Shown here: positions 16,306-50,291 of the stretch, piece by piece | Layout: each line of letters begins with the position of its first letter | Position numbering within the stretch: position 1 is the stretch's first letter | NCBI GenBank assembly: GCA_036253495.1 | Contig: GCA_036253495.1_4125.1 | Direction: 5' to 3' (one strand) | Origin: a phage | DNA length: 64,000 bases | Notes under the pieces: generated by a model | What the model saw: only the letters and a program-made list of their open reading frames with translations | Told to the model about the DNA's origin: nothing | The model's database searches: none | Made by a program: the position numbers and the translations under genes

Positions 16306-16588
16306 AATAAATGATATCACTTCTATCATATTGGATGAGTGTATTTTAGGATCATACGAAACATTTTCAGTACTAGACGGTATAGAACTATGGCACATTA
16401 AATGCCGTGGTATCAATGGCTTCAGTACTGAATGCAAAAAACTCTTGACTTCGTGCAGTACTGAAGGTAAACTGTGTACAGTGAGGTCATCACCGAGTCT
16501 TTCATATACTGGATATATAATTTATCTTGGAAGTGATCATTTATTCTATCTCACCAAGGAGAACTATTTTGACAAATACAAACAGTAA
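16298..16588 (+). CDS. hypothetical protein
   Basis: ORF track. Confidence 0.6.
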   Translation: MSEINDITSIILDECILGSYETFSVLDGIELWHIKCRGINGFSTECKKLLTSCSTEGKLCTVRSSPSLSYTGYIIYLGSDHLFYLTKENYFDKYKQ

Positions 16589-17504: not shown

Positions 17505-17770
17505 TGAATTATAAGGATTTACATTTCACCTATAAACTAACATTTTATATGTATCGTTATGCTGATAACAACTTCATGGATAATGCATTTTATCATCGTT
17601 TGTGGAGTGATTATATAAATTCTTTACGTGAACATTTTATAGGTACTATAATTCAATACGAAGGTAAAACAGTAAAAATATTTCAAGTTGATAGTTACAA
17701 CGGGGATCTATGCTTCAAGGGTAGAGATTCTAGTGATGGATTACATGAGATTTATATCTATGAATTATAA
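17504..17770 (+). CDS. small protein, IG-motif paralog family
   Basis: 88 aa; MNYKDLHFTYK...LREHFIGTII. Confidence 0.65.
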   Translation: MNYKDLHFTYKLTFYMYRYADNNFMDNAFYHRLWSDYINSLREHFIGTIIQYEGKTVKIFQVDSYNGDLCFKGRDSSDGLHEIYIYEL

Positions 17771-18035
17771 GGATTTACAATTCACGTACAAAATTCTTCA
17801 TGAACAATATGAACGTGGTGAAGGAATATTAACTTACGATGAACGAGATTTTTTTCTTACATTGTGGTGTGAATATTTGGCAATGATTAACGAGATTTTT
17901 GTTGATAAAGAATATATGATTGACGACATGACTGTACGTATTATCAGAATTAAAAGTTATAATGGAAGTCTTGTTGGAATTTACTATAACAATGAAAAGG
18001 CGAAAAGCGGATTTGTTGATTTGGAGTATCTATGA
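17760..18035 (+). CDS. small protein, IG-motif paralog family
   Basis: Track ORF 17688..18035 trimmed to the ATG giving MNYKDLQFTYK, matching paralog N termini. Confidence 0.65.
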   Translation: MNYKDLQFTYKILHEQYERGEGILTYDERDFFLTLWCEYLAMINEIFVDKEYMIDDMTVRIIRIKSYNGSLVGIYYNNEKAKSGFVDLEYL

Positions 18036-18295
18036 ACTATAATGATTTACAATTCACGTATCAACTTTTATATGATGATATGAATAACGAATTAGGTTTC
18101 TACTATGAAGTACGTAATAAAATATGGTCAAATTATCTATCTGAGATACAACATCATTTTATAGGACTTCCAATACGTAGAAATAATAAAAACTATCGTT
18201 GTACTGATGTAGTAAGTCATAGAGGTAGGTTGCGTTTAGAATTCTACCGCAGAGACGGGGACTTCATTGGTATAAATTTACTGGATTTTAAATGA
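18032..18295 (+). CDS. small protein, IG-motif paralog family
   Basis: 87 aa; MNYNDLQFTYQ...IQHHFIGLPI. Confidence 0.65.
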   Translation: MNYNDLQFTYQLLYDDMNNELGFYYEVRNKIWSNYLSEIQHHFIGLPIRRNNKNYRCTDVVSHRGRLRLEFYRRDGDFIGINLLDFK

Positions 18296-18358
18296 TGAAA
18301 AACAACTTAAAGGAAATACAAGTATTTTATAGATTCTTATACTTGTCATATGTAACAG

Positions 18359-18580
18359 ATGAGTACTATGAAAGTGTGTATTATTTTTTTATGGCAACAT
18401 TACCGTACTATAGTAAGAGATTTATATATAGGAAAATCTATCATATCCAATGGTGAAAAATGTACCTGTACAGATGTTGTTAGTTTTAATGGTTCTTTAA
18501 CACTGTGTTTCAGATGCGATAATAATAGTGGGTCATTTTCATTAAACGTATATCAGTTAGAAGGAATAAATTTTGAATAA
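18359..18580 (+). CDS. small protein, IG-motif paralog family
   Basis: 73 aa; RDLYIGKSII...CTCTDVVSFNGSL resembles neighbours. Confidence 0.55.
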   Translation: MSTMKVCIIFLWQHYRTIVRDLYIGKSIISNGEKCTCTDVVSFNGSLTLCFRCDNNSGSFSLNVYQLEGINFE

Positions 18581-22439: not shown

Positions 22440-22703
22440 ATGAATATCCAAGATAGATTGCAATTGTTGCACACACTTGAAGAAGCTGCTTTTGAACTTG
22501 TTAATAAAATTGCACAAGAACTCCCAAAAGGAACCAACATTCGTGTTCGTGAAATGGATTATTTAACGGGAGAAATTGAAGAAAAAGTTCTAACAGTGAT
22601 CAAAGTAACATACTATGAATCAGAGTTATCAATTCAATGTAAGTCAGATAATGGTTACGTTTCCTACTATGGCACAGATGTAGATATAGAGGTAATTAGA
22701 TGA
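22440..22703 (+). CDS. hypothetical small protein
   Basis: Track ORF 22395..22703 trimmed to ATG just after upstream stop. Confidence 0.55.
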   Translation: MNIQDRLQLLHTLEEAAFELVNKIAQELPKGTNIRVREMDYLTGEIEEKVLTVIKVTYYESELSIQCKSDNGYVSYYGTDVDIEVIR

Positions 22704-23845
22704 GTAATTTACGAGAAATATACAATGATTTAATGGAACTATGTGAATCTAATGATGCATTTTTCTATATAGATCACACAAGCCCTGGTGGTGGTTTATA
22801 CCGTGTATTCACCTATCGTCTGGCATCTTATACCGATTTCACAAATAAAAATGCACTAGAAACTCGTGGTTCTATGTGGGAAATTGATTCCAACGGAATT
22901 ATGATTCGTTGTGCAGCACGTACAATGAAAAAGTTCTTCAATGCATATGAAAACCCGTACACAATGTTCAGTACTGATACTACCTGTGATGATATTGCGG
23001 TTGTAATGCCTAAGCTAGATGGATCTATCATCAGCACATTCCGTGATAATGATGGTGAAATCCGTTGCAAATCACACACTTCGTTATCTTCTGACCATGC
23101 TATTAACAGTACTCGACTTTTGAACGAGAACCAAAATCTCTATCAATACATTGATGAAGCAGACCGTTTGGGCTATACTGTGAATCTGGAATACACAAGC
23201 CCAGAGTATCGAATTGTGTTACCATATCAGGTGGAACAGTTATTTGTTCTTAACGTTCGTCATCGTATTAGTGGTGAGTTGTTATGCGGTAAAGCACTAC
23301 GTGATAAGTTTCCATGCCTTTCACAGTACAGTACTAATATGACAGGTAATGACATTCATCATACATTCCCGATTATGCCTACATTTAAAGAGTCAATCGA
23401 TAAAGTACGTTCTATGATTGACATTGAAGGTTTTGTGTGTATAATGAAAGATGGTACAATGTGCAAAATCAAAACTGACTGGTATTGCTCTTTGCATTTA
23501 ACAAAAGATTCCATTCTTATTGATTCCCATTTATATGAAGCTGTACTGACTGGTGCAAGTGATGACTTAAAACAATTGTTCAGTACTGATACATATGCTA
23601 TGGATAAGATATTAAGAATGGAACAATTGGTATTTTCGTGCTATAATGCTTTACAAGATGAGGTAGAAAGCTTCGTCCATGCATACAAGCACTTAGAGCG
23701 AAAGGAATTCGCACAAAAGGTTCAGCAAGATTTACCGAATGTATTGAACCGACAAGGCTTGGCCTTTGCGTTGTACAATGGCAAAAGTGTCGATTATAAA
23801 GAGACTTTACTAAAGTACTACAAAGATGTACTAAAGGATTTTTAG
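22700..23845 (+). CDS. rnlA: RNA ligase 1 (T4 RnlA-like)
   Basis: 381 aa; nucleotidyltransferase motif I KxDG (VMPKLDGSI); N-terminal and C-terminal blocks (EIYNDLMELCE, IMKDGTMCKIKTDWY, GASDDLKQLF) colinear with T4 RNA ligase 1 as recalled. Confidence 0.85.
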   Translation: MSNLREIYNDLMELCESNDAFFYIDHTSPGGGLYRVFTYRLASYTDFTNKNALETRGSMWEIDSNGIMIRCAARTMKKFFNAYENPYTMFSTDTTCDDIAVVMPKLDGSIISTFRDNDGEIRCKSHTSLSSDHAINSTRLLNENQNLYQYIDEADRLGYTVNLEYTSPEYRIVLPYQVEQLFVLNVRHRISGELLCGKALRDKFPCLSQYSTNMTGNDIHHTFPIMPTFKESIDKVRSMIDIEGFVCIMKDGTMCKIKTDWYCSLHLTKDSILIDSHLYEAVLTGASDDLKQLFSTDTYAMDKILRMEQLVFSCYNALQDEVESFVHAYKHLERKEFAQKVQQDLPNVLNRQGLAFALYNGKSVDYKETLLKYYKDVLKDF

Positions 23846-24918: not shown

Positions 24919-25851
24919 ATGCCAACTATTACACTAACAGTTGGATTGCCAGGATGTGGTAAAACCACGTGGGCAGTGCAAGAAATTAAAAAAGCAAAGT
25001 CCAAGACTATCAACATCAACCGTGATGATATTCGAGAGTCTATGGCTGGGTCACATGATGCTTATAAATTCACTGATGCGAACGAGAAGTACGTAACTAA
25101 TCAACAGTTCAGTGCAGCAAACGCCGCAGCAGCGAATGGATGGAACATTATTGTGTCCGATACGAACCTGAAACAAGGTTTTCGTGATGAATGGAAACGT
25201 TGGGCTAAAGATAATGGCTACGACTACAAAGAAAAGAACTTCTACGAAGATTTTGTACCGAATGAAGACCGTGGTGCAGATGTTCATGAATTCTTTAAGA
25301 TTAAGGAATTCGTGAAGCTCTGTAAGAAACGCAACCTTCTTCGTGAGCGTTCAGTACAAGATGAAATCATTGACACTATGGCAGATACGTACTATTATAG
25401 TAAGGCGATGCACATTGGTTACTATGGTAATGCACGTGAAGCTGCTATCATTGTTGATATCGACGGTACTCTTGCTCATAAGTGGGGACGTAACCCGTTT
25501 GATGAAAGTACTGTCCTTCAGGATACACCAGATGAAGAAGTAATTCTGTCTGTCATTGCTGAGGCTGTTTTCCATAAGCGTAAGGTAATCGTCATGAGTG
25601 GGCGTACTGAAGGGTGTCGTGCTGATACTGAACAGTGGCTTAAGAATTGGGGCATTCCCTACGATGTATTGTTAATGCGAGCTATCGATGATAAACGTCC
25701 TGATGATGTTGTCAAATTCGAGTTGTATATGAATAACGTTGTTAATCATTACGATGTTAAGAAAGTATTTGATGACAGGGCCGCCGTTGTATTCATGTGG
25801 CGTAAGCTACTAGGCTTGAAAGTATTTCAGGTGGAACCTGGACTATTTTGA
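24919..25851 (+). CDS. pseT: polynucleotide 5-prime kinase / 3-prime phosphatase (T4 Pnk-like)
   Basis: 310 aa; N-terminal P-loop GLPGCGKTT; C-terminal HAD phosphatase motif IVDIDGTLA; colinear with T4 Pnk as recalled. Confidence 0.85.
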   Translation: MPTITLTVGLPGCGKTTWAVQEIKKAKSKTININRDDIRESMAGSHDAYKFTDANEKYVTNQQFSAANAAAANGWNIIVSDTNLKQGFRDEWKRWAKDNGYDYKEKNFYEDFVPNEDRGADVHEFFKIKEFVKLCKKRNLLRERSVQDEIIDTMADTYYYSKAMHIGYYGNAREAAIIVDIDGTLAHKWGRNPFDESTVLQDTPDEEVILSVIAEAVFHKRKVIVMSGRTEGCRADTEQWLKNWGIPYDVLLMRAIDDKRPDDVVKFELYMNNVVNHYDVKKVFDDRAAVVFMWRKLLGLKVFQVEPGLF

Positions 25852-33082: not shown

Positions 33083-34501
33083 ATGAGCATTTTAGCAATT
33101 CTGGAACAAATCAAAAAGACTTCAAGTACACTTGGTAAGAAAGCAATCCTTGAAGAAAACAAAAACAATGAAACACTCAAAAAAGTACTGAAATATACGC
33201 TAGACCCTACTATCGTAAGTGGCTATAAGAAGCTACCAGACGCTACTGACGTGTATCAACATATGACGTTAGATGAAGCTATTGATAAGCTAGAATGCAT
33301 CTATAAGCGTGGTGTGACGGGTAATACAGGGCGTGATTTCATTGCTTCAGTACTAGGTTCTGTTTCCGACGATGACCAGGAAGTTCTCCGTAAAATGCTC
33401 ACGAAGAACCTTGATTGTGGTATTCAGGAAAAGAACTGTAATGATGTATTCGGTAAAGGCTTCATTAAAGATGAACCTTATATGCGTTGTTCATTGATTG
33501 ACAAGAAAACTGCTAAGAACATCAACTTCAAAGATTATGGTTATGCAGTCGCTGAGCATAAATTAGATGGGATGTATATGAACCACGTTGTTATCAATGC
33601 ATCATTAACATCCACTTCCCGTAATGGTAAGATTTATGACTTCCTCGGTTGTCGTGATGCTGAAATGGCTGGCCTTGCTCATCATATCCAAAGTACAGAT
33701 GAACGTTTCAGTAGTGGTGTAGTCTTTATGGGTGAGGGTTTAGTACTGGATACTGATGGGGAAACTATTCTTCCACGTACAACTGGTAACGGCATCATTC
33801 AGAAAGCTGGTAAGGATACTATCACCCAAAACGAAGCAATGCGTACTGTATTTGTACTATGGGATGTAGTGCCATACGATGCATATTGTGATGGTATCTG
33901 GGATGTAAAACGTAAGGAACGTCGCGAGATTCTCGAAGGTGCAATCAATGCATTAGGTAGTGAATTCGTGCGTATGGTTGGATATCGTAAGGTGAAGGAT
34001 CTCAAAGAAGCCTTTGCTTACAACTCTGAACTCATGAGTTCAGGTGAAGAAGGTTCAGTACTGAAATGTGAAGATGGTATCTGGAAATCTCATACTTCTC
34101 CTAAGCAGTTGAAAATGAAATTGAAAATGCAACTGGACTTGCGTATTGTTGGTTTCAATGAAGGTGAAGGTAAGCGTAAAGGTATGCTTGGTTCTTTACA
34201 ACTCGAAAGTGCTTGTGGTACACTGAAAGTAAGTGTTGGAACAGGCATTAAAGAGAAAGACGCTGAATGGACATTTAAAACCATTTGGGAAAGAATGCAA
34301 GAACTCATTGGCAAAGTTGTTACAATAGAGTGCAATGACGTAGTATATGATAAGCGTACTGGTGAGCCATCACTATTTTTACCAGTGTTTATTGAATTTA
34401 GATTTGACAAAAACACGTGTGACGATTATACTCGTATTTTAGAAATTCGCGAGAGTGCAGTTGAAGTGTTCTCTAACAGTATTATTGAATCAATTTCGTA
34501 A
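33083..34501 (+). CDS. ATP-dependent DNA ligase (T4 gp30-like)
   Basis: 472 aa; ligase motif I KxDG (AEHKLDGMY); N terminus ILEQIKKTSSTLGKKAILEENKNNE resembles T4 DNA ligase. Confidence 0.85.
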   Translation: MSILAILEQIKKTSSTLGKKAILEENKNNETLKKVLKYTLDPTIVSGYKKLPDATDVYQHMTLDEAIDKLECIYKRGVTGNTGRDFIASVLGSVSDDDQEVLRKMLTKNLDCGIQEKNCNDVFGKGFIKDEPYMRCSLIDKKTAKNINFKDYGYAVAEHKLDGMYMNHVVINASLTSTSRNGKIYDFLGCRDAEMAGLAHHIQSTDERFSSGVVFMGEGLVLDTDGETILPRTTGNGIIQKAGKDTITQNEAMRTVFVLWDVVPYDAYCDGIWDVKRKERREILEGAINALGSEFVRMVGYRKVKDLKEAFAYNSELMSSGEEGSVLKCEDGIWKSHTSPKQLKMKLKMQLDLRIVGFNEGEGKRKGMLGSLQLESACGTLKVSVGTGIKEKDAEWTFKTIWERMQELIGKVVTIECNDVVYDKRTGEPSLFLPVFIEFRFDKNTCDDYTRILEIRESAVEVFSNSIIESIS

Positions 34502-34515: not shown

Positions 34516-35592
34516 ATGATTGACAATGCTATTATACAAAGTGTGAATTTATTTTTATCAAGTGATGCATTGTCAATCTCTAATACTATTTGGAAAGAGA
34601 AATACAAATGGCTTCCAGAAAATTTTAGTTTTGATATGCTGGAAACTGATTCGTATAGTGAAAATAATAACAATATTCATGGTTTTGTCCGAACTGGTAA
34701 AAATGGATATACAAAAATGTATTTTCATAGTTGTGATGTTTGTAAACAAGATTCGTCATTGCACGGTCTTGGTATTTTCGCATCTGTACGAAGTAATTTG
34801 GAAAAAGGTATAGTTGCATGTGATTGTTCCATAACTTCAAAACTAACAAAATATCAATATATTGCTAAAATTTATAAAAAATGTTTGGAACTTGGATACG
34901 AATTTATTGGATTTAATGAGGATTGGGAATCAACACAGCCAAAAGGACTAATCCATCTAAAATTATCATGTAATATTCATGGATTATGGAATACAACAAC
35001 AATTGATAATTTACTGTTCCACTCTAAAGGTTGTAAGGAATGTGGGAGACGTAAAATCAGCCAAGCTAGAACAATTGGAGATGAATTCCATATAAATGAG
35101 TTTTTCAAAACAGGTAAATTTAGTAAAGGTAGTAAGTTTTGGCGTTCTGACCGTTTGAATACTTATGGTTACAAGAATTATTGGTTTTATGAATGTTCAG
35201 TATGTCATATGGTAGTTGAATCACAGATTGGTAACCTAAAGGATGGAAAAGTACCATGTTTATGTAATGGAAACATCCAACAACAATGCTATATAAATTT
35301 AGTACTTGACAATAATATTCCAATTGCATTAAAATATGGTATAGCAAACAACTTCACAACGAGAGAAAAATCTCAAAATAAGCATTCAATCTATGATATT
35401 GTAAACAGTGGTGTTTGGGAATTTGAAACAGTATCATTGTGTAAATCAGCAGAAGCGGAATGTAAGAGAATTTTCTCACCAGTACTTGAAGCTCGTGAAA
35501 TGAAAGATGGATATACGGAAACTACATCACCATTAGATATTGACAAAATCATTGAAATATATGAGAATTGGGGTGGTGTGCGAATAAAATAA
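34516..35592 (+). CDS. Cys-rich hypothetical protein
   Basis: 358 aa; several Cys pairs (CDVC, CKEC, CSVC); no confident family assignment. Confidence 0.6.
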   Translation: MIDNAIIQSVNLFLSSDALSISNTIWKEKYKWLPENFSFDMLETDSYSENNNNIHGFVRTGKNGYTKMYFHSCDVCKQDSSLHGLGIFASVRSNLEKGIVACDCSITSKLTKYQYIAKIYKKCLELGYEFIGFNEDWESTQPKGLIHLKLSCNIHGLWNTTTIDNLLFHSKGCKECGRRKISQARTIGDEFHINEFFKTGKFSKGSKFWRSDRLNTYGYKNYWFYECSVCHMVVESQIGNLKDGKVPCLCNGNIQQQCYINLVLDNNIPIALKYGIANNFTTREKSQNKHSIYDIVNSGVWEFETVSLCKSAEAECKRIFSPVLEAREMKDGYTETTSPLDIDKIIEIYENWGGVRIK

Positions 35593-35604: not shown

Positions 35605-36396
35605 ATGAAATTTGTTGTAACGTCAGACGTACACGGTGGCACTGATTACCTCCATAGTGGTGATTACAGTGATACAGTACTGATCATTGCAGGGGACTTT
35701 GATGAAGCTAAACGCAGTCGTTATCGTACTGGTATCGAATCCCTGTGCAAGCAGTTCAAGAATGTAGTACTGGTTCCTGGCAACCACGAGTACTACGGTT
35801 CAAACATTCACAAGACTAATAAAGTTCTGTCCGATATGCAAGATGAGATTCCAAATTTCATCTTTTTGCAAAACAAATTTGTATGGCTGGATGGTGTCCT
35901 GCTCGTTGGTAGTACTCTGTGGACAGACTTTGACAAAGGTAATTCCATGACGAAGTTTGATGCTCGTCAGAAGATGAACGATTACAAACATATTCGTCAT
36001 GGAACAACATCCGAGCCTTGGCGTAAGAAACTGACACCCGAAGATACTGAGTTCATGCATCACAAAGATAAACAATTTATCAAAAATTCAGTTGACACAG
36101 TACGCTTAATGCAGGATAATGATTTCAAGGTCATCGTGATTACCCATCACGCACCGAGTTTTCAAAGTGTTTCGCCAAAATATAAAAACGATTCACTGAA
36201 TGGTTGTTACTGTTCAGACATGGATCAGTACATTGAAGATTTGGGTGCTGATGTTTGGATTCATGGTCATGTTCATAGTAGCTTTGATTACCACATCGGT
36301 AAGACACGTATCATTTGTAATCCAAGAGGTTACGAATCTTATAGTGGAGCTTGTGAGAATTTCGATTACAATCCCAAATTGGTATTCGAAATCTAA
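35605..36396 (+). CDS. calcineurin-like metallophosphoesterase
   Basis: Track ORF trimmed to ATG with GGAGG RBS; motifs SDVHGG, AGDFDE, GNHEYYG, GHVHSS. Confidence 0.8.
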   Translation: MKFVVTSDVHGGTDYLHSGDYSDTVLIIAGDFDEAKRSRYRTGIESLCKQFKNVVLVPGNHEYYGSNIHKTNKVLSDMQDEIPNFIFLQNKFVWLDGVLLVGSTLWTDFDKGNSMTKFDARQKMNDYKHIRHGTTSEPWRKKLTPEDTEFMHHKDKQFIKNSVDTVRLMQDNDFKVIVITHHAPSFQSVSPKYKNDSLNGCYCSDMDQYIEDLGADVWIHGHVHSSFDYHIGKTRIICNPRGYESYSGACENFDYNPKLVFEI

Positions 36397-44581: not shown

Positions 44582-45187
44582 ATGAAACGAATCTTGAAAG
44601 AGATTGTACAAACCGTTGTTTTAATCGCTGCATTAAACTTTCCGGCAGCGGCAGAAGTTTCAAAAAAATCATCTGTTTTTCTATTAAATGAACATGTTGT
44701 GTCAATTGATGGTGAACTAAATGATGAAACTGTACAAGAAGTGAAGAAGTTGTGGAAAGAAACAAGATTTAAAATTTTAACAATTACATCACCTGGTGGA
44801 GATTTTGATGCAGGATTAGATTTGGGATTGTTTGTGGCTGCTAAAAAGTTAACTGTTTATGTCCCAAAGCAATGTAATTCGTCTTGTAGTCTGGTTTTTT
44901 TCTCTGCATCATCTGAACGTAGGGATATGAGTGATACCGCAGTGATGGGTTTACATAACATCTCACTAGTATCTACGAATGGTGCAGATCCAGATACGAC
45001 ATTCGTTTCAGTTAGACAGTTGATGGAGTTTACACATCAAGTCTCAACTAAAGTTGGGTATCTTTTTACACTGTACGCACATAACGGTATCCCCGCTGAA
45101 ACACTCATTGATATCAGTACTAAACATGGTGAGGATATCGTTGTCTTACGAAGATCAGATCTCGTTAAATGGGGAATCATTCAATAA
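44582..45187 (+). CDS. secreted ClpP/S49-like (crotonase-fold) protein, possibly a divergent or inactive peptidase
   Basis: 201 aa; N-terminal signal-peptide-like segment; ITSPGGDFDAGLDLGLFV resembles the ClpP SPGG block, but the catalytic Ser context is not canonical. Confidence 0.4.
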   Translation: MKRILKEIVQTVVLIAALNFPAAAEVSKKSSVFLLNEHVVSIDGELNDETVQEVKKLWKETRFKILTITSPGGDFDAGLDLGLFVAAKKLTVYVPKQCNSSCSLVFFSASSERRDMSDTAVMGLHNISLVSTNGADPDTTFVSVRQLMEFTHQVSTKVGYLFTLYAHNGIPAETLIDISTKHGEDIVVLRRSDLVKWGIIQ

Positions 45188-45314
45188 AAAGTTGTATTTT
45201 TTATGAAGCAATGATATAATCCTAATACTAATTCATGATTTTGGTTAAGGGTGGTGTACTGCCACCCGATTTTAAGATATAATGGTTGTACATTATCAAC
45301 CAAGGAAACAAAAA

Positions 45315-45578
45315 ATGACAGAATTATCACATCTTCAAGGCTGGACAGAGTTCATCTTCTATGCTACTATAGTTACATATGGAATCATTGTTCTTTTATC
45401 AGTGATTATGGCAAGTGATTTCAAGAGTGGTTTTCTTGAAGAAAATGGTGAGTTTTCTTCTAAAACTGAAAAGTACTTTTATTATTTCTTTAAAATTTCG
45501 TATACAATTTTACTCATAATTTTGGGTTTACTATTGTATTTCATGTACACAATCTTAGATGTAATGCATCTTTTATAA
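45315..45578 (+). CDS. small membrane protein
   Basis: Track ORF 45282..45578 trimmed to ATG with AAGGA RBS; two hydrophobic helices. Confidence 0.55.
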   Translation: MTELSHLQGWTEFIFYATIVTYGIIVLLSVIMASDFKSGFLEENGEFSSKTEKYFYYFFKISYTILLIILGLLLYFMYTILDVMHLL

Positions 45579-45589
45579 CGGAGATATCA

Positions 45590-46192
45590 ATGACTTGTAT
45601 TATTGCTTACACTGATGGTAACACATCTTTTATCGCGGGTGACAAACTGGGTAGTAATGGTTTCACTAAAGCAATTCAAACTGAACCAAAAGTGTTTGAA
45701 AAAGAATTCATCAAAATCGATGAAAGTGGATTGAATCGCACCAAAGAAGTTATGGCAATGGGATACACGTCGAGCTTCCGCATGGGACAATTGCTGACGT
45801 ATAAACTTGATTTACCTGAACAGCAATCAAACCAAACATTCTCACAGTACTTAGTACTTGAGGTAATCCCACGTATTCGCACACTCTTCAAAGAAGAATG
45901 GGGTGCTCGTGATACAACTCAAGACGTTGGTGGTGGACAGTTTATTATTCTCCACAATCATACAATTTATGAAGTTCAAGAGGATTTTTCAGTACTCCAA
46001 CCTAAGACACAAATTACATCTGTTGGTAGTGGTACATATCATGCAATTGCAGCTATGCAAGCATATATTGAAGTTCAAAAAGAAACAGGTGTTAAGATGG
46101 TTGATCGCACCGATTCTATCTTCAAAATTGTAAGTGATAATGTTACCAGCGTTAGTGCTGAGTATGATTTACTAAGCTATCCTAAGCTGTAA
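45590..46192 (+). CDS. HslV/proteasome-like Ntn-hydrolase peptidase candidate
   Basis: 200 aa; Met-Thr N terminus then CIIAYTDG.TSFIAGD and later SVGSGTYHAIAAMQAY, resembling HslV blocks. Confidence 0.5.
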   Translation: MTCIIAYTDGNTSFIAGDKLGSNGFTKAIQTEPKVFEKEFIKIDESGLNRTKEVMAMGYTSSFRMGQLLTYKLDLPEQQSNQTFSQYLVLEVIPRIRTLFKEEWGARDTTQDVGGGQFIILHNHTIYEVQEDFSVLQPKTQITSVGSGTYHAIAAMQAYIEVQKETGVKMVDRTDSIFKIVSDNVTSVSAEYDLLSYPKL

Positions 46193-46200: not shown

Positions 46201-46228
46201 AGGGGATTCTTATAATCCCCTATATTAA
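46201..46228 (+). terminator. probable rho-independent terminator
   Basis: Perfect 8 bp hairpin aggggatt/aatcccct; downstream tract is AT-rich rather than a clean T-run. Confidence 0.4.
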
Positions 46229-46252: not shown

Positions 46253-46465
46253 ATGATAACTATCAATTACTTTTCACTATGCTTTGTTTATTTTGTTGTT
46301 GTATTTCTAGCAGTTGTAGCGTACAATAATATTAAATGTATATATAAAATTATCAAAAACAAAGAGAAATTCAATGGATGGATGATATATCACATTGTCA
46401 TCTCGGTTGTGTGTATCTTATTTGTATACGATTTGAGTTCATTAGGTACAGTAGGTAAGCTATGA
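46253..46465 (+). CDS. small membrane protein
   Basis: 70 aa, two hydrophobic helices. Confidence 0.55.
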   Translation: MITINYFSLCFVYFVVVFLAVVAYNNIKCIYKIIKNKEKFNGWMIYHIVISVVCILFVYDLSSLGTVGKL

Positions 46466-47214
46466 TTTCTGACTCTTTTATAAAAAATAAAGGTAATAAA
46501 CGTGTATTGGTTATTTCCGGTGCAGGTCTATCCGTTGAAAGTGGGATGGAACCGTTTCGCATGGACGATGGCCTATGGGATCAATTTCAAATAAATGATG
46601 TATGTAACATTGCACGTCTTAGTACTAAGTATCATTTAGTACACACTTTCTATAATACATTACGTGTTAAAATGAAAGATTGTGTTCCTAATGATATGCA
46701 TTATTATATCAAATCTATAGAAGATACATACGGTGATAACTTTTTACATATGACTTCGAATATGGATGATCTCTATACTCGTATTGGTGGCAATGAATTA
46801 AAGTTACATGGTAATTTAAAAGAAGTTATTGAGAATTTTACAATTGGTGGTGACGATTATAGTATTGTGGATTGTGGTTATGAACCGTACATTCCGAAAG
46901 AAGGTGTCTTTGCGAAACCAAACGTAGTGTTCATTGGTGAATATTATCGTTATGTTGATGGTGAAAAACTCCCAATATACGATGAGCGTAATTTAGTATT
47001 GCAATCCTTAACAGAAGATGATACAGTTGTAGTCATTGGTAGCAGTGACACAGTACTGAAATGGTCACATCTGGTTGCGTGTTTACCATGCTTTAGTGTT
47101 AATATCAACATCAGAAAAAATGATAACGATTTCATGTTCAATGAAAAAATTATAAAACCAGCTACAAAAGCGATTCCAGTACTGGAAACTATCATTAAGG
47201 ATAGAATGAAATGA
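46462..47214 (+). CDS. Sir2-family NAD-dependent protein (deacylase/ADP-ribosyltransferase/NADase family)
   Basis: 250 aa; Rossmann motif ISGAGLSVESGMEPFR and catalytic-region LHGN; ATGA overlaps at both ends. Confidence 0.75.
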   Translation: MISDSFIKNKGNKRVLVISGAGLSVESGMEPFRMDDGLWDQFQINDVCNIARLSTKYHLVHTFYNTLRVKMKDCVPNDMHYYIKSIEDTYGDNFLHMTSNMDDLYTRIGGNELKLHGNLKEVIENFTIGGDDYSIVDCGYEPYIPKEGVFAKPNVVFIGEYYRYVDGEKLPIYDERNLVLQSLTEDDTVVVIGSSDTVLKWSHLVACLPCFSVNINIRKNDNDFMFNEKIIKPATKAIPVLETIIKDRMK

Positions 47215-47759
47215 TTCGAGAAGTACCTCTAGGTGAGTATGGTAAACGAGCAAACTTTGTATTCTGTTACTTCTTTGCTCGAAATTGTAACCCATATAAA
47301 GGTTATGATTTAAATGATATCCCTGTTGTGAATCTGGTATTACTCCAGCTTCGTTGGGATGGTTTACTGGGTGGTTGTGGTGGAACAGTTGAAGATACCG
47401 ATGCCACCTTAGAAGATGCACTATTCCGTGAAATTCAGGAAGAGATGGATTATAATATTTTCATCGAACAACTGAAACCATTGAAAACTTACGAACTATA
47501 TCCAGGAGCACATACTCATAGCTATAGTTATGAAGTTACTTACGAAGAATTGAAAGCGATTCGCGATGGATACTGTACTGCTAAACATGCAAGTGCAGAA
47601 GTGGCTGGTGTTAATTTATGTCACATTTCTCGTTATTCAAAGGGACAAAACCGAGAAGCAGGATATAATAATCTTATGACACAAAACTTCATAGGAACTG
47701 CTAAAATGGAATTAGAACATCTTGTTCAATCCGAGAATTTACTGATTAGTTACTTATAA
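47211..47759 (+). CDS. Nudix hydrolase-like protein
   Basis: 182 aa; Nudix-box-like GGCGGTVED...REIQEEMD with slightly non-canonical spacing. Confidence 0.55.
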   Translation: MIREVPLGEYGKRANFVFCYFFARNCNPYKGYDLNDIPVVNLVLLQLRWDGLLGGCGGTVEDTDATLEDALFREIQEEMDYNIFIEQLKPLKTYELYPGAHTHSYSYEVTYEELKAIRDGYCTAKHASAEVAGVNLCHISRYSKGQNREAGYNNLMTQNFIGTAKMELEHLVQSENLLISYL

Positions 47760-47770
47760 GGTGAATTATA

Positions 47771-48103
47771 ATGTCTTACTCAATGTTTCTGGATGATATT
47801 CGTGATCCTGAAAAGTATTATCCAAATCAAAACATGGTTTTATGTCGTGATTATGAAAGTGCATGTGCTTATGTAAATGAACATGGTTTACCACAATTTA
47901 TTAGCTTCGATCATGACTTAGGTGATGTTGGGGAGGATGAAAAAACAGGGTATTCATTTGCAAAATTTCTAATTGATTATATGGTCGAAAACAATATCAG
48001 TACTGGATTCGATTATATTATTCATAGCAGTAATCCTGTAGGGAAGGTCAACATTGACACATACTTACAGAATGGTTTTAGATTTTTGAGAGGGGACAAT
48101 TGA
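47771..48103 (+). CDS. hypothetical protein (conserved-looking FLDDIRDP / DHDLG / HSSNPVG motifs)
   Basis: 110 aa; immediately downstream of the Sir2-Nudix pair. Confidence 0.6.
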   Translation: MSYSMFLDDIRDPEKYYPNQNMVLCRDYESACAYVNEHGLPQFISFDHDLGDVGEDEKTGYSFAKFLIDYMVENNISTGFDYIIHSSNPVGKVNIDTYLQNGFRFLRGDN

Positions 48104-48399
48104 CAAAACATCATATACAAAGCTTTATAATCACAAGTGTTATATTTCTTGTTGTGTTTTGGTTCTTCTATCATCAAGATCAAACCAAGCACCGAAATAT
48201 ATACTACCGTACTGCTGTTGTTACTGACATAGGGCAGTGTGAAGAAAATACATGTTCATTTACTTATAAGACTGAAGATGGGTCTATTAAGTATGGAGCA
48301 TCAAGGAAACCAGTTTCAGTTGGGCAAATTGTTTACAATGAATGCTGGACAGAAAAGGCTCGCGGTCACCGCTGCTACGTTGACTATGAGCCACAATAA
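48100..48399 (+). CDS. small membrane protein
   Basis: 99 aa; N-terminal hydrophobic helix; ATGA overlap. Confidence 0.55.
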   Translation: MTKHHIQSFIITSVIFLVVFWFFYHQDQTKHRNIYYRTAVVTDIGQCEENTCSFTYKTEDGSIKYGASRKPVSVGQIVYNECWTEKARGHRCYVDYEPQ

Positions 48400-48463: not shown

Positions 48464-49903
48464 ATGAAAAAATACACAATTGACACAAACGTACTACTAT
48501 CCGATCCAAATGCAACCGTAGCATTTGATGGGGCAGCAGTGATTCTACCATTCACTGTTCTTGAAGAACTTGATTCAATCAAGAGCCGTAATGTTGACGT
48601 ATCACGTGATGCACGTTTCGCAATCCGTAACATCGATGCAATTCTGAAAGATGCTACTCATGAAGAAATCAGCAGTACTGGTGTTAATATTGCCAATATC
48701 CACAAAAATATGGATGCATCCAGTAAGCTATTCGTTATGACGAATGAAGAAGCTGAAGCACTTATTCGTATGGGCGGCAGTGAAGATAAAGTAGAAACTC
48801 TACTTAAAAGTACTGTACCAGATGACAAAATCATTCTAGTGGCTTTGGCATCACAATCAGTACTGGTAACTCGCGACATTAACATGCGTATCAAAGCAAT
48901 GAGCTACGGTGTTGAGGTACAAGATTACCGTCATGACGTTGCAATCGAAGATAGTGAGTTGATTCATATTGGTCAGCACCACCTTGATATTGATTTCTGG
49001 AAAACATTCAGTGAAGTTAATAATGCTGAAATTAAATCCCAACAAGAAGGTCGCCGTCTATATCACTATATTCCAACCGCATTGATTCAAGATGTTCTAC
49101 CAGATAATCTATGTATTGGTGATTATCTATATGATAATGCTGATGTACTATTCGTATACGAAGGTCAATCTGCTATCGAAGAAGAAGACGGTTCACTAAC
49201 ACCTGAAGATATTTTGGTATTCCAGGATATTGGTCAAAGTATCGCTCTTCGTGCTAAAGTTTGGGATATTAAAGCAAAGAATATTCAACAGGCACTAGCA
49301 ATTAACAGTATTCTTGACCCTGATGTACATTTGACAGTACTACTCGGTTCAGCAGGTACTGGTAAAACATTGATTACTGTTGCTACTTCACTCGAATTAG
49401 TGCTGGAAAAACGTAAATACGATCGTATAATCTTCTCCAAAACACAAGATTCTCAATTTGAAGAAATTGGTTTCTTGCCTGGTTCTGAAGCTGAAAAGGT
49501 CATCCCATTCTGTGGGGCTGCAATCGATGCTCTAGAGTATCTACACAAAGATGATGCTAACCCACAAGGTAGCATTGAAGAGATTCTCAAACGTAACGTA
49601 ATGCAGTTTAAAGCATTGAACTTTATTCGTGGTCGTTCTTTCACTAATACAATTCTAATTGTAGATGAATTCCAGAACATCACCCCTGCACAGGCAAAGA
49701 CTATTCTTACCCGTGCTGGACAAAACTGTAAGGTTATCATTATGGGTAACTTAGCACAGATTGATAGTAAGTTTATTAGTCCAGTGAACAGTGGTTTGAC
49801 ATATGTAACTGAAAAATTCAAAGATTGGGAAGGTTGCCGTATCATTGAATTGGAAGGTGTAGTACGTTCTGCACTCGCTGAGTTTGCAGAAGAAAATATG
49901 TAA
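48464..49903 (+). CDS. phoH: PIN-domain / PhoH-like P-loop ATPase (PhoH2-type)
   Basis: Track ORF trimmed to ATG with AAGGA RBS; N-terminal PIN-like IDTNVLLSDP, Walker A LLGSAGTGKT, Walker B IVDEFQN. Confidence 0.85.
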   Translation: MKKYTIDTNVLLSDPNATVAFDGAAVILPFTVLEELDSIKSRNVDVSRDARFAIRNIDAILKDATHEEISSTGVNIANIHKNMDASSKLFVMTNEEAEALIRMGGSEDKVETLLKSTVPDDKIILVALASQSVLVTRDINMRIKAMSYGVEVQDYRHDVAIEDSELIHIGQHHLDIDFWKTFSEVNNAEIKSQQEGRRLYHYIPTALIQDVLPDNLCIGDYLYDNADVLFVYEGQSAIEEEDGSLTPEDILVFQDIGQSIALRAKVWDIKAKNIQQALAINSILDPDVHLTVLLGSAGTGKTLITVATSLELVLEKRKYDRIIFSKTQDSQFEEIGFLPGSEAEKVIPFCGAAIDALEYLHKDDANPQGSIEEILKRNVMQFKALNFIRGRSFTNTILIVDEFQNITPAQAKTILTRAGQNCKVIIMGNLAQIDSKFISPVNSGLTYVTEKFKDWEGCRIIELEGVVRSALAEFAEENM

Positions 49904-49910: not shown

Positions 49911-49939
49911 TTGACATTAAATGTGTTCATTGCTATAAT
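49911..49939 (+). promoter_or_regulatory. consensus sigma70 promoter (TTGACA-17-TATAAT)
   Basis: Perfect -35 and -10 hexamers with 17 nt spacer, about 32 nt upstream of 49972. Confidence 0.65.
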
Positions 49940-49971
49940 GAACACACCATTATCGAAGAAGGAAGTAAATC

Positions 49972-50160
49972 ATGGCTAAACAACCTAAGAAAAAAGAACC
50001 AGAAGTTAAAGTTAAAAAAGTGAAAGTTATTCAATCCAAAGAACAACGCACTTATGAGCTACGTAAAGCTGAAACTTTAAGTGGGCTTCAGTCTCTACGT
50101 AAGCAAGGTGTACTAACACGTGCACAATATCGTGAACTGGTTGCACAAAAAGGTTTTTGA
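49972..50160 (+). CDS. small highly basic protein, possible nucleic-acid-binding
   Basis: 62 aa; MAKQPKKKEPEVKVKKVKV...; GGAAG RBS; driven by consensus promoter. Confidence 0.65.
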   Translation: MAKQPKKKEPEVKVKKVKVIQSKEQRTYELRKAETLSGLQSLRKQGVLTRAQYRELVAQKGF

Positions 50161-50263
50161 TTTAACGCGTTTTTTTGGAGTTCTTAATAAATACTTTCAT
50201 AAGAATAATAATACTTTTTATGAATTTAAAAAGAACTCCATGTGTTATTTCAGTAAGTTTTTC

Positions 50264-50291
50264 ATCCCTGTCAATTGGCAGGGATTTTTTA
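50264..50291 (+). terminator. rho-independent terminator
   Basis: Hairpin atccctg/cagggat followed by TTTTTT; preceded by a 9 bp inverted repeat pair (50177-50185, 50231-50239). Confidence 0.6.

What the first reader, a model, noticed from the sequence alone, without database searches (positions are those of the whole stretch)
46462..48103. Sir2 - Nudix - unknown three-gene module with overlapping stops and starts
A Sir2-family protein (GAGLSVESGMEPFR, LHGN) is translationally coupled to a Nudix-like hydrolase (REIQEEMD), followed by a small protein with conserved-looking motifs (FLDDIRDP, DHDLG, HSSNPVG). Sir2 domains are best known in bacterial anti-phage systems as NAD-depleting effectors, so a phage-borne Sir2 next to an ADP-ribose/NDP-sugar hydrolase suggests a phage NAD/ADP-ribose processing module, either for host takeover or to counter NAD-depletion defences. 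An HxGH nucleotidyltransferase (possible NMNAT) at 15476-16015 could belong to the same metabolism.
Basis: inference. Interest (0 to 1): 0.6.

Follow-up and report, generated by a model that had tools for sequence, protein, structure and literature searches.

The report
Phage sirtuin–Nudix–cREC RNA-repair cassette
A giant E. coli phage carries a tightly packed gene set (a CobB-like sirtuin, a NUDT16-like Nudix hydrolase, a 'cREC' receiver-fold enzyme and a PIN-PhoH RNA nuclease/helicase) that comparative genomics had already predicted to be an NAD-dependent RNA-end repair system; it is real and conserved, but no one has tested what it does.

Summary
The three ORFs are real (46462-47214, 47211-47759, 47771-48103) and every quoted motif is present. 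The window is 99.3% identical to Escherichia phage A4, an Asteriusvirus jumbo phage. Gene 1 is a CobB-like true sirtuin: catalytic His, Asn and Asp are kept, the Cys4 zinc site is lost, and it matches no defence-system model. Gene 2 is a NUDT16-like Nudix with an intact REx2EE. Gene 3 is not unknown. It is a cREC domain (PF20274) with a confident receiver fold.

The trio is the core of a probable six-gene operon ending in a PIN-PhoH gene. The block is conserved across Rak2-like jumbo phages, where Nudix and cREC are often fused into one protein. Sirtuin-cREC linkage recurs in other gene orders beside RNA ligase or a kinase in rV5-like and Mydovirus phages. It is absent near 80 cellular CobB relatives.

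Iyer et al. 2022 already described this neighbourhood in silico as a sirtuin-centred, Tpt1/KptA-like RNA repair system. This window is a variant without the 2H gene. The defence-type Sir2 analogy and the NMNAT link are not supported. The biochemistry is untested.

The parts
46201..46221 (.). Terminator-like GC hairpin (8 bp stem) with T-runs on both strands. It follows the HslV-like peptidase gene and is the likely upstream boundary of the cassette's transcription unit.
   Evidence: Consensus scan only.
46253..46465 (+). 70-aa ORF with two hydrophobic segments (small membrane protein). Its stop overlaps the Sir2 start (ATGA).
   Evidence: Annotated as A4_470 in phage A4. No Pfam or PHROG family. 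A small ORF of 64-80 aa occupies this position in relatives.
46462..47214 (+). CobB-like sirtuin of a phage-specific clade. It has GAGLS (20-24), FR (32-33), TSNMD (98-102), catalytic H116, KPNVV (152-156) and GE (159-160). There is no Cys4 zinc ribbon. An insertion of about 9 aa follows the FGE loop.
   Evidence: Pfam SIR2 4.6e-19 and phrog_2162 8.9e-72. PDB CobB 3e-21, or 8.8e-40 with the clade profile. AF2 model pLDDT 89.2; Foldseek best match CobB, TM 0.76/0.84. Clade invariants. Zinc-site loss.
47211..47759 (+). NUDT16/X29-like Nudix hydrolase. R73, E74, E77, E78 and E130 are conserved with human NUDT16. The last Gly of the Nudix box is Asp here.
   Evidence: Pfam Nudt16-like 4.9e-19 and NUDIX 5e-6. 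phrog_9999 3.9e-85. PDB NUDT16/X29 4e-13 to 5e-11. Alignment. Fused to cREC in GAP32 and in four IMG/VR jumbo loci, L006-L008 and L011 (301 aa), and in L010, which lies on a 357,154-bp contig, the length of Serratia phage BF (302 aa).
47771..48103 (+). Stand-alone cREC ('cyclic-phosphate processing receiver') domain protein. Invariant residues are D8, D9, R11, P41, F46, D47, H48, D49, L50, N88 and G91.
48100..48399 (+). 99-aa protein with an N-terminal hydrophobic anchor and a Cys-rich C-terminal part. TTG start overlaps the cREC stop. Conserved at this position in all Rak2-like relatives.
   Evidence: phrog_14661 1.1e-34. 40% identical to GAP32_121. Same position in L001-L011.
48464..49903 (+). 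PIN-PhoH fusion (PhoH2-type predicted RNA nuclease plus ATPase/helicase). Last gene of the cassette. An alternative GTG start lies at 48440.
   Evidence: Pfam PIN_4 1.2e-21 and PhoH 1e-43. phrog_2765 2.3e-161. Conserved downstream partner in all 11 jumbo loci.
49911..49939 (+). Perfect sigma-70 consensus (TTGACA, 17 nt spacer, TATAAT, with TG extension) immediately after the PIN-PhoH stop. Likely start of the next transcription unit, marking the downstream boundary.
   Evidence: 12/12 match. Consensus scan only.
22700..23845 (+). T4-type RNA ligase 1. Possible sealing partner of the proposed repair pathway. It lies 22.6 kb upstream and is not part of the operon.
   Evidence: Pfam RNA_lig_T4_1 1.8e-15 and T4_Rnl1_C 7.2e-15.
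24919..25851 (+). T4-type polynucleotide kinase-phosphatase (P-loop kinase plus HAD phosphatase). Possible end-healing partner, not part of the operon.
   Evidence: Pfam HAD_PNKP 5.5e-42 and AAA_33 3.7e-14.

Best explanation
The three genes are the core of a conserved, probably co-transcribed six-gene cassette of a Rak2-like (Asteriusvirus) jumbo phage. The order is small membrane ORF, zinc-less CobB-like sirtuin, NUDT16-like Nudix, cREC, membrane/Cys-rich protein, PIN-PhoH. It is a member of the sirtuin-centred phage neighbourhood that Iyer, Burroughs, Anantharaman and Aravind (2022) predicted to be an NAD+-dependent RNA-end repair system.

Shown here: the gene identities, intact catalytic motifs, predicted folds, the operon-like layout, conservation of the block, the Nudix-cREC fusion in relatives, and independent sirtuin-cREC linkages next to RNA ligase or a kinase in other phage families.

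Inferred mechanism: when host RNases cut tRNA or mRNA and leave 2',3'-cyclic or 2'/3'-phosphate ends, the sirtuin uses NAD+ to ADP-ribosylate the RNA phosphate. [quoted passage not shown] The NUDT16-like Nudix cleaves the ADP-ribose pyrophosphate to give AMP plus phosphoribose. It could act on the free by-product or on stalled RNA-phospho-ADP-ribose, an activity known for human NUDT16. PIN-PhoH would unwind or trim the RNA. The phage's Rnl1 and Pnkp, elsewhere in the window, would seal the ends.
For: Identity and intact active sites.

Operon layout: 4-nt overlaps or 11-nt spacers with SD-like sequences. A terminator-like hairpin sits at 46201-46221 and a perfect promoter consensus at 49911-49939.

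Conservation: the same block occurs in A4, ELP-22, GAP32 and 7 IMG/VR jumbo contigs. The Nudix and cREC tblastn counts per host genus are identical for the jumbo group (Escherichia 33/33, Klebsiella 10/10, Salmonella 9/9, Erwinia 8/8, Yersinia 4/4).

Fusion: the Nudix-cREC fusion protein of GAP32 (301 aa) is 51% and 59% identical to the two window ORFs.

Independent contexts: rV5 has Rnl1, cREC, Sir2 as coupled genes. Mydovirus has cREC, an AAA_33 kinase, Sir2 and an ATP-dependent ligase. T5 has Sir2 plus HAD_SAK_2, an RNA-repair-associated phosphatase family.

Specificity control: none of 80 loci around the closest cellular CobB-like relatives has cREC, Nudt16-like, PIN-PhoH, Rnl1, Pnkp, HAD_SAK or 2H within 6 kb. 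74 of 78 of those keep the zinc CxxC pairs that the phage clade has lost.

Substrate site: the jumbo clade has a ~9-aa insertion after the FGE loop, no Cys4, and TQN changed to TSN. From general knowledge of sirtuin structures, the FGE loop and zinc module border the peptide-substrate cleft, so this region appears remodelled.

Literature: the prediction itself (PMC9503650 section 3.7.3; PMC7824862 section 3.4.8). Human NUDT16 removes ADP-ribose from RNA phosphate-ADPr made by TRPT1/KptA and PARP10 (PMC6582358). Rnl1 and Pnkp are present in the window.
Against: No biochemical or genetic data exist for any protein of this clade (literature searches). The closest characterised homologues of the sirtuin are protein lysine deacylases. 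The catalytic His needed for deacylation is invariant here, so a protein substrate is not excluded.

The T4-type Pnkp/Rnl1 pair heals 2',3'-cyclic phosphate ends without creating a 2'-phosphate, so a Tpt1-like step is not obviously needed. That pair is also more than 20 kb away. From general knowledge, PIN nucleases leave 3'-OH/5'-P ends, not cyclic phosphates.

The 2H gene of the published configuration is absent from this window, and apparently from Asteriusvirus as a whole. In relatives that 2H gene is best matched by the anti-CBASS Acb1 family and lies beside NAD-salvage genes. That arrangement fits a counter-defence island as well as it fits repair.

Outside the jumbo group, the neighbours of 60 other viral cREC genes are heterogeneous, with only about 9 ligase or kinase genes among 134 neighbours. 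A Vibrio phage sirtuin of the same clade has none of these partners within 6 kb. Phage early regions are generally rich in nucleic-acid enzymes, so some of the linkage may be passive.
Confidence: 0.45

Rival explanations
1. The sirtuin is a protein lysine deacylase, a phage copy of the host CobB function. It remodels the host or phage acyl-proteome during takeover. The Nudix, perhaps with cREC, destroys the O-acyl-ADP-ribose or ADP-ribose by-product.
For: The best sequence and structure matches are E. coli CobB, archaeal Sir2 and SIRT5, all deacylases, over the full length. The whole NAD-binding and catalytic network is invariant in the clade, including the His used as general base in deacylation. 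From general knowledge, some Nudix enzymes hydrolyse O-acetyl-ADP-ribose.
Against: The Cys4 zinc module is lost, whereas it is kept in 74 of 78 close cellular relatives. The clade has an insertion at the FGE loop. The CobB/SIRT5 Y-x-x-R pair reads Y64-x-x-L67 here, with the Arg shifted by one position. The recurrent partners are RNA ligase, a Pnk-like kinase, HAD_SAK, cREC, 2H and PIN-PhoH rather than acyltransferases or protein-modifying genes. Cellular CobB-like genes show none of these linkages. This reading gives cREC and PIN-PhoH no role.
Confidence: 0.22
2. This is a counter-defence module against NAD-derived or nucleotide immune signals, or against NAD depletion. Nudix plus cREC, with the Acb1-like 2H in relatives, degrade ADP-ribose-derived or cyclic-nucleotide second messengers or toxic ADPr-phosphates. 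The sirtuin has an accessory or unrelated role.
For: In GAP32 and 7 other jumbo loci the cassette is preceded by a 2H protein whose best Pfam match is anti-CBASS Acb1 (5.7e-16; homologous to KVP40 gp57B). It lies 2-5 kb from NadV and, in GAP32, an NMNAT-Nudix gene, which is a NARP2-like NAD salvage pair. Iyer et al. also propose that phage Nudix and cREC domains counter soluble ADPr derivatives.
Against: An NAD-consuming sirtuin with an intact active site is the most tightly coupled gene of the block, and that runs against an NAD-sparing role. In this window both the 2H and the NAD-salvage genes are absent, yet the Sir2-Nudix-cREC-PIN-PhoH core is retained. The sirtuin-cREC pair recurs next to RNA ligase or a kinase in phages with no such island. 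There are no PADLOC or known anti-defence family hits for the three proteins.
Confidence: 0.2
3. This is a macromolecule-marking system for host takeover. The sirtuin ADP-ribosylates a host protein or nucleic acid, or uses or removes NAD caps on RNA. The NUDT16-like Nudix trims the mark to phosphoribose or decaps RNA, and cREC removes the remaining phosphate. PIN-PhoH then degrades the marked or decapped host RNA.
For: NUDT16-family enzymes are RNA-decapping enzymes. They also convert protein- or RNA-linked ADP-ribose to phosphoribose (Pfam name; PDB hits; PMC6582358; PMC4680915, listed). A T4 Nudix, NudE.1, decaps NAD-RNA in vitro (bioRxiv 10.1101/2024.04.04.588121). PIN-PhoH is a predicted RNA nuclease/helicase. 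From general knowledge, some sirtuins are ADP-ribosyltransferases.
Against: No macrodomain or other reader or eraser partner is present, and no target is identifiable. This reading does not explain the linkage to RNA ligases and end-healing phosphatases or kinases in other phages.
Confidence: 0.1

Closest known systems
Sirtuin-centred NAD+-utilising RNA-repair neighbourhood, configuration 1 (sirtuin + 2H + Nudix + cREC + PIN endoRNase; prototype Serratia phage BF), predicted in silico by Iyer et al., Viruses 2022 (PMC9503650)
   Same: Same phage group (Rak2-like jumbo phages) and same sirtuin clade. Nudix, cREC and the PIN(-PhoH) gene are adjacent in the same order. Serratia phage BF itself appears among the tblastn hits.
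   Different: No 2H gene lies in the 64-kb window, and apparently none in Asteriusvirus. Nudix and cREC are separate genes here, not a fusion. NAD-salvage genes are not nearby. Added here: the Nudix is specifically NUDT16-like, the 2H of relatives is Acb1-like, the sirtuin has lost its zinc site, and a conserved membrane protein belongs to the block.
E. coli CobB and class III sirtuins (SIRT5, archaeal Sir2-Af1/Af2)
   Same: Full-length homology (profile E 8.8e-40) and the same fold (TM 0.76/0.84, 28% identity). GAGxS, FR, N/D and the catalytic His are conserved.
   Different: No Cys4 zinc ribbon. TQN is replaced by TSN. The Y-x-x-R Arg is shifted by one position. There is a ~9-aa insertion after the FGE loop. 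The gene context is phage-specific and absent around cellular homologues.
Tpt1/KptA RNA 2'-phosphotransferase pathway (Tpt1, then cyclic phosphodiesterase, then macrodomain phosphatase)
   Same: [quoted passage not shown]
   Different: There is no homology. Tpt1 has an ART-type fold and this protein is a Rossmann-fold sirtuin. The by-product processors here would be cREC and Nudix instead of 2H and a macrodomain. The activity is entirely untested.
Human NUDT16 / Xenopus X29 (U8 snoRNA decapping, ADP-ribose and ADPr-conjugate pyrophosphatase)
   Same: Pfam Nudt16-like 4.9e-19 and PDB hits at 4e-13. R-E-x-x-E-E and the downstream Glu are conserved.
   Different: This is a phage protein. The last Gly of the Nudix box is replaced by Asp. 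It is fused to cREC in relatives. Its substrate is unknown.
Phage T4 Pnkp-Rnl1 tRNA repair (counter to the PrrC anticodon nuclease)
   Same: Homologues of both enzymes are encoded in the window. The theme is the same: repair of RNase-cut RNA. Rnl1 is directly adjacent to cREC-Sir2 in rV5.
   Different: T4 has no sirtuin or cREC in this pathway (general knowledge). Here Pnkp and Rnl1 lie more than 20 kb from the cassette.
Mycobacterial PhoH2 (PIN-PhoH RNA helicase/RNase)
   Same: The last gene of the cassette has the same two-domain architecture.
   Different: The context is phage rather than cellular. The relation to PhoH2 biochemistry rests on my own knowledge and was not tested here.
Phage NAD+ reconstitution pathways NARP1, NARP2 and NARP3
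   Same: Relatives carry NadV and an NMNAT-Nudix gene (NARP2-like) 2-5 kb upstream of the cassette. The theme of NAD supply for an NAD-consuming enzyme is shared.
   Different: None of the three genes is a NARP enzyme. NadV is absent from the window. The HxGH ORF at 15476-16015 is not demonstrably an NMNAT. NARP definitions are taken from PMC13464706.

Membership tests
Sirtuin / SIR2 family (PF02146) | Profile match above the curated threshold | tested here: met
   69.5 bits against a cutoff of 24, covering positions 1-178 of the 180-position model. PDB CobB 3e-21.
Sirtuin / SIR2 family (PF02146) | NAD-binding and catalytic network: GAGxS, FR, (T)QNxD Asn/Asp, catalytic His-Gly | tested here: met
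   GAGLS 20-24, F32-R33, N100, D102 and H116-G117 are all invariant or nearly invariant in the clade. The Gln of TQN is Ser here.
Sirtuin / SIR2 family (PF02146) | Cys4 zinc ribbon in the small domain | tested here: not met
   The 36-aa segment between HG and KPNVV has one Cys and no CxxC. The same holds in about 35 nearest cluster representatives. More distant relatives and 74 of 78 cellular relatives have two CxxC motifs.
Sirtuin / SIR2 family (PF02146) | NAD-dependent lysine deacylase activity | not testable with these tools
   Needs enzyme assays.
Defence-associated SIR2 NADases (ThsA, DSR1/2, SIR2-HerA, SPARSA and similar) | Match to defence-system SIR2 models, and a partner or fused sensor domain (SLOG, HerA, pAgo, TIR, long DSR arms) | tested here: not met
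   No PADLOC hit at E<0.1. The protein is a 250-aa single domain. Neighbours are Nudix, cREC and PIN-PhoH. The 50 listed structural matches are all sirtuins; the annotated ones are deacylases, none a defence SIR2.
Nudix hydrolases, NUDT16-like subfamily (PF00293 / PF22327) | Profile matches above curated thresholds | tested here: met
   Nudt16-like 69.3 bits against 27. NUDIX 27.0 bits against 21.1.
Nudix hydrolases, NUDT16-like subfamily (PF00293 / PF22327) | Catalytic Nudix-box residues REUxEE | tested here: met
   R73-E74-I-Q-E77-E78 are invariant in 20 phage homologues and align with RELREE of human NUDT16. E130 aligns with the Glu of the NUDT16 'LEVLG' segment.
Nudix hydrolases, NUDT16-like subfamily (PF00293 / PF22327) | Terminal Gly of the canonical box (GX5EX7REUXEEXGU) | tested here: not met
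   The position is Asp (REIQEEMD). The effect on activity is unknown.
cREC (PF20274, cyclic-phosphate processing receiver domain) | Profile match above threshold and a receiver (CheY-like) fold | tested here: met
cREC (PF20274, cyclic-phosphate processing receiver domain) | Conserved acidic active-site residues equivalent to the receiver DD pair and phospho-acceptor Asp | tested here: met
   D8, D9, D47 and D49 are invariant in 61 sequences, as are R11, H48 and N88.
cREC (PF20274, cyclic-phosphate processing receiver domain) | Never paired with a histidine kinase; found with RNA-repair or NAD-processing genes | tested here: inconclusive
   The immediate neighbours here are Sir2, Nudix and PIN-PhoH. 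The neighbours of 60 other viral cREC genes gave no histidine-kinase family among the 25 most frequent Pfam hits but were otherwise heterogeneous. The window was not scanned exhaustively for kinases.
cREC (PF20274, cyclic-phosphate processing receiver domain) | Cyclic phosphodiesterase or phosphatase activity | not testable with these tools
   The activity is predicted only; the papers describe cREC as experimentally uncharacterised (PMC9503650).
Iyer et al. 2022 sirtuin-centred phage RNA-repair neighbourhood, configuration 1 | Phage-clade sirtuin adjacent to Nudix and cREC genes | tested here: met
   Consecutive, co-directional, coupled genes. The same block occurs in 10 related loci.
Iyer et al. 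2022 sirtuin-centred phage RNA-repair neighbourhood, configuration 1 | PIN-domain endoRNase in the neighbourhood | tested here: met
   PIN_4 plus PhoH at 48464..49903.
Iyer et al. 2022 sirtuin-centred phage RNA-repair neighbourhood, configuration 1 | 2H phosphoesterase in the neighbourhood | tested here: not met
   tblastn with the GAP32 2H finds nothing in the window at E<1. Escherichia phages are not among the top ten genera carrying it. It is present directly upstream of Sir2 in L003 and L005-L011.
Tpt1/KptA RNA 2'-phosphotransferase | Homology to the Tpt1 ART-type fold | tested here: not met
   The protein is a Rossmann-fold sirtuin. Only a 'works like' claim is possible.
Tpt1/KptA RNA 2'-phosphotransferase | [quoted passage not shown] | not testable with these tools
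   Needs biochemistry or yeast tpt1-delta complementation.
NARP2-type NAD+ salvage (Nampt/NadV + NMNAT) | NadV and NMNAT genes present | tested here: not met
   No NadV homologue in the window by phmmer. The HxGH ORF at 15476-16015 falls below Pfam thresholds and shows 20% identity (E 0.006) to a phage NMNAT-Nudix N-domain. Relatives do carry NadV near the cassette.

The most novel reading that the evidence does not exclude
The phage sirtuin is a nucleic-acid-directed sirtuin. It would be an NAD+-dependent RNA phosphate ADP-ribosyltransferase / 2'(3')-phosphotransferase that evolved from a CobB-like deacylase by losing the zinc ribbon and remodelling the peptide cleft. cREC would be a new receiver-fold cyclic phosphodiesterase or phosphatase. 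The NUDT16-like Nudix would clear RNA-linked or free ADP-ribose(-phosphate). Together they would form a repair route, convergent with Tpt1, that lets jumbo, T5-like and rV5-like phages survive RNA-cleaving host defences.
Probability: 0.35. Interest if true: 0.8.

Novelty: new member of a known kind. Interest (0 to 1): 0.42.

Why it matters
About 985 of the 50,697 phage records searched, including T5-like, rV5-like and Rak2-like jumbo phages used in phage therapy, encode this sirtuin clade. Not one member has been assayed. If the published prediction holds, it would be the first sirtuin acting on RNA and the first enzymatic activity shown for a receiver-fold cREC domain. It would also be a second, independently evolved solution to the Tpt1 reaction, and would explain how large phages withstand tRNA- and mRNA-cleaving defences. 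If the enzyme is instead a deacylase or part of a counter-signalling module, it would still reveal a widespread way for phages to use host NAD+. The Asteriusvirus version is a minimal form without 2H or NAD-salvage genes, in an E. coli phage, which makes it convenient for experiments.

Tried and rejected
1. Defence-type Sir2: PADLOC gave no hit for the sirtuin or cREC, and the structural matches are deacylase sirtuins. Rejected.
2. Domain fusions that might reveal the sirtuin's substrate: an exhaustive profile search gave 9847 hits. Ten long hits were scanned in Pfam and showed only SIR2, plus one WG repeat. Uninformative.
3. General cREC context: Pfam on 134 neighbours of 60 other viral cREC genes gave a diffuse picture, with a few RNA/DNA ligases and kinases. 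This is weak support only.
4. Cellular context: the 80 best bacterial relatives of the sirtuin have none of the partner genes. This served as a negative control and yielded no new leads.
5. 2H gene in this phage: not found in the window or in Asteriusvirus.
6. NMNAT claim for 15476-16015: no PDB match and sub-threshold Pfam. The only clear match is the PHROG 'cytidyltransferase' family. Not accepted as NMNAT.
7. An apparent 'NMNAT-Sir2 fusion' annotated in a Klebsiella Mydovirus record turned out to be an annotation artefact. The real ORFs are cREC, a kinase, Sir2 and a ligase.
8. Horizontal-transfer signature: the GC content of the module is ordinary for the window.
9. tRNA genes near the module: none in the window.
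10. Experimental literature on phage sirtuins or cREC: none found.


Full report
OBSERVATION. Every quoted motif is present. The Sir2 stop and the Nudix start overlap (ATGA). The Nudix and the third gene do not overlap; they are separated by 11 nt containing GGTGA. Two further 4-nt overlaps tie in the flanking genes: a 70-aa membrane ORF (46253..46465) upstream, and a 99-aa membrane/Cys-rich ORF (48100..48399, TTG start) downstream. All three proteins score far above curated Pfam thresholds, so chance is not an issue.

SOURCE. The region is 99.3% identical to Escherichia phage A4 (ON286972.1, 355 kb, genus Asteriusvirus). It is 74-77% identical to other PBECO4/G17-like jumbo phages. In A4 the genes are annotated 'Sir2-like protein' followed by 'hypothetical protein' entries.

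GENE 1, THE SIRTUIN. The Pfam SIR2 match has E 4.6e-19. NCBIfam gives only sub-threshold CobB-type matches, and PADLOC defence models give no hit.
- The best solved relatives are E. coli CobB (3e-21, or 8.8e-40 over the full length with a clade profile), then archaeal Sir2 and SIRT5.
- An AlphaFold2 model (pLDDT 89.2) superposes best on CobB (TM 0.76/0.84, 28% identity).
- GAGLS, F32-R33, N100, D102, H116-G117, KPNVV and the GE of the FGE loop are invariant or nearly so in the clade.
- The differences from canonical sirtuins are consistent across the clade. The Cys4 zinc ribbon is absent although a hairpin of the same length (34-38 aa) with a (D)IGY motif remains. More distant members of the same subfamily still carry CxxC...CxxC. 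TQN is TSN. The Y-x-x-R of CobB/SIRT5 reads Y64-x-x-L67-R68. The jumbo branch has an insertion of about 9 residues right after the FGE loop. From general knowledge of sirtuin structures, the zinc module and FGE loop border the peptide-substrate cleft, so I infer that this region is remodelled.

GENE 2, THE NUDIX. It belongs specifically to the NUDT16/X29-like subfamily (PF22327, 4.9e-19; NUDIX 5e-6; PDB NUDT16/X29 4e-13 to 5e-11). R73-E74-x-x-E77-E78 and E130 are invariant in 20 phage homologues and align with the human enzyme. Only the terminal Gly of the box is replaced, by Asp. Human NUDT16 cleaves the pyrophosphate of ADP-ribose attached to proteins. It also removes the ADP-ribose signal from RNA 5'/3'-phosphate-ADPr made by PARP10 and by TRPT1/KptA (PMC6582358).

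THE UNIT IS LARGER THAN THREE GENES. A terminator-like hairpin at 46201-46221 follows the preceding HslV-like peptidase gene. A perfect sigma-70 consensus at 49911-49939 follows the PIN-PhoH gene at 48464..49903 (PIN_4 1.2e-21 plus PhoH 1e-43). These are consensus matches only. Together with the tight gene spacing they suggest one six-gene transcription unit.

The block Sir2, Nudix, cREC, membrane protein, PIN-PhoH is conserved in A4, ELP-22, Cronobacter phage GAP32 and seven IMG/VR jumbo contigs. In GAP32 and five of those contigs Nudix and cREC are one 301-302-aa polypeptide. The GAP32 fusion is 51% and 59% identical to the two window ORFs. That fusion is strong evidence that the two proteins work together. 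Across the phage collection, the Nudix and cREC counts for the jumbo group match genus by genus (Escherichia 33/33, Klebsiella 10/10, Salmonella 9/9, Erwinia 8/8, Yersinia 4/4).

INDEPENDENT CONTEXTS OF THE SAME SIRTUIN CLADE. tblastn finds the clade in 985 phage records.
- In rV5 the order is Rnl1, cREC, Sir2, as coupled genes.
- In a Klebsiella Mydovirus it is cREC, an AAA_33 (Pnk-like) kinase, Sir2 and an ATP-dependent ligase.
- In T5 it is Sir2 followed by a HAD_SAK_2 'Swiss-army-knife RNA repair' phosphatase.
- A Vibrio phage member has no such partner within 6 kb.
- As a control, the 80 closest relatives in species-representative bacterial genomes are 25-34% identical chromosomal CobB-like genes. 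None has any of these partners within 6 kb, and 74 of 78 keep the zinc cysteines.

The linkage and the zinc loss are therefore features of the phage clade, not of CobB-like sirtuins in general.

PRIOR KNOWLEDGE. This neighbourhood has already been described computationally. [quoted passage not shown] They also list the rV5/Mydo and T5-like configurations. They propose that the sirtuin acts like KptA/Tpt1 on RNA 2'-phosphates, while the partner enzymes resolve cyclic phosphates or process ADPr>P. I found no experimental work on any member.

WHAT IS DIFFERENT HERE. In GAP32-type relatives the gene just upstream of the sirtuin is a 2H protein. Its best Pfam match is now the anti-CBASS Acb1 family (5.7e-16), and it is homologous to KVP40 gp57B. 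NadV lies 2-5 kb upstream in all eight of those loci, and GAP32 also carries an NMNAT-Nudix gene there. In the window, and apparently in Asteriusvirus as a whole, both the 2H and the NAD-salvage genes are missing and an HslV-like peptidase gene lies upstream. The conserved core is therefore Sir2, Nudix, cREC, membrane protein and PIN-PhoH. The window also encodes T4-type Rnl1 (22700..23845) and Pnkp (24919..25851), 21-24 kb upstream.

MECHANISM. The best-supported reading is the published one, with two refinements.
- The shown facts are gene identity, intact catalytic residues, folds, layout, conservation, fusion and context.
- The inferred pathway starts with an RNA phosphate left by a host RNase. 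[quoted passage not shown]
- cREC opens the cyclic phosphate, or dephosphorylates, either on the RNA end or on the by-product.
- The NUDT16-like Nudix cleaves the ADP-ribose pyrophosphate. The behaviour of human NUDT16 suggests it might also rescue RNA-phospho-ADP-ribose intermediates.
- PIN-PhoH handles the RNA, and Rnl1/Pnkp seal the ends.

I put this at about 0.45. The closest characterised homologues of the sirtuin are deacylases. T4-type Pnkp/Rnl1 does not need a Tpt1 step. The cREC context outside these phages is diffuse. The Acb1-like and NadV neighbours in relatives fit a counter-defence island equally well.

The rivals are a CobB-like protein deacylase with by-product clearance (0.22), a counter-signalling or NAD-conflict module (0.20), and a marking or decapping takeover system (0.10).

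THE NMNAT SUGGESTION. ORF 15476-16015 does carry HxGH and belongs to PHROG 'cytidyltransferase' families (5.5e-54). However, it is below Pfam thresholds, has no PDB relative, and is only 20% identical (E 0.006) to the NMNAT-like half of GAP32_112. It is translationally coupled to a Dam methyltransferase and lies 30 kb from the module. No link to the cassette is supported.

VERDICT. The feature is a new member, a minimal 2H-less variant, of a phage system that is already predicted but experimentally untouched. Interest is moderate. The discovery is not new, but the underlying question of whether a sirtuin acts on RNA is open and directly testable in an E. coli phage.

Noticed in passing
window 17232-18580: A tandem array of at least five small paralogous ORFs (73-115 aa). 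Four begin with a shared motif (MNY[KN]DL[HQ]FTYK...) and several overlap at their ends. This looks like a locally expanded gene family of unknown function.
   Followed up: no
window 14952-16015: A Dam-type N6-adenine DNA methyltransferase (Pfam Dam 4.2e-32) is translationally coupled (ATGA overlap at 15476-15479) to the HxGH cytidylyltransferase-like ORF (phrog_3041 5.5e-54). The pairing of a methylase with a nucleotidyltransferase-fold protein is unexplained.
   Followed up: partly
window 16527-17186: This ORF ends in a long acidic tail (DDDDGEIYIELDDDDDDDE).
   Followed up: no
window 44582-46192: Two protease-like genes lie just upstream of the cassette. One is a ClpP/NfeD-like protein (phrog_26024 2.4e-60; Pfam only weak). 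The other is an HslV-like peptidase (phrog_1040 3.6e-21; NCBIfam HslV sub-threshold). They occupy the position where relatives carry the 2H/Acb1-like gene.
   Followed up: partly
window 34516-35592: A protein with three CapR homology domains (Pfam CapR 1.9e-18) lies between an ATP-dependent DNA ligase (33083-34501) and a calcineurin-like phosphoesterase (35605-36396).
   Followed up: no
L003 4300-4746 (GAP32_118) and L005-L011: The gene annotated 'RNA ligase' upstream of the sirtuin in GAP32-type jumbo phages is a 2H phosphoesterase. Its best Pfam match is the anti-CBASS Acb1 family, and it is homologous to KVP40 gp57B. Its presence beside NadV suggests that an anti-defence island abuts the cassette in those phages.
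   Followed up: partly
L087 5021-8090 (Klebsiella phage vB_Kpn_K45PH128C2, OY978796.1): The record annotates a 1089-nt pseudogene 'nicotinamide-nucleotide adenylyltransferase' over the sirtuin region, but that frame contains 30 stop codons. The real ORFs are cREC (114 aa), an AAA_33 kinase (135 aa), Sir2 (258 aa) and a ligase (433 aa).
   Followed up: yes
proteins P0132 and P0133 (close homologues of the window sirtuin): Two members of the jumbo-phage sirtuin clade have GNGL instead of GAGL and have lost the FR dipeptide (PYH / LYD). They may be inactive or altered in NAD binding.
   Followed up: no
L005 and L009 (IMG/VR jumbo contigs), between Sir2 and Nudix: An extra ORF of 122-123 aa is inserted between the sirtuin and the Nudix genes in these two relatives. 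Its identity was not determined.
   Followed up: no
window 49911-50285: A perfect extended sigma-70 promoter consensus (49911-49939) drives a 62-aa lysine-rich ORF (49972-50160, phrog_24119). It is followed by a strong terminator-like hairpin (50264-50285), forming a compact stand-alone transcription unit right after the cassette.
   Followed up: partly
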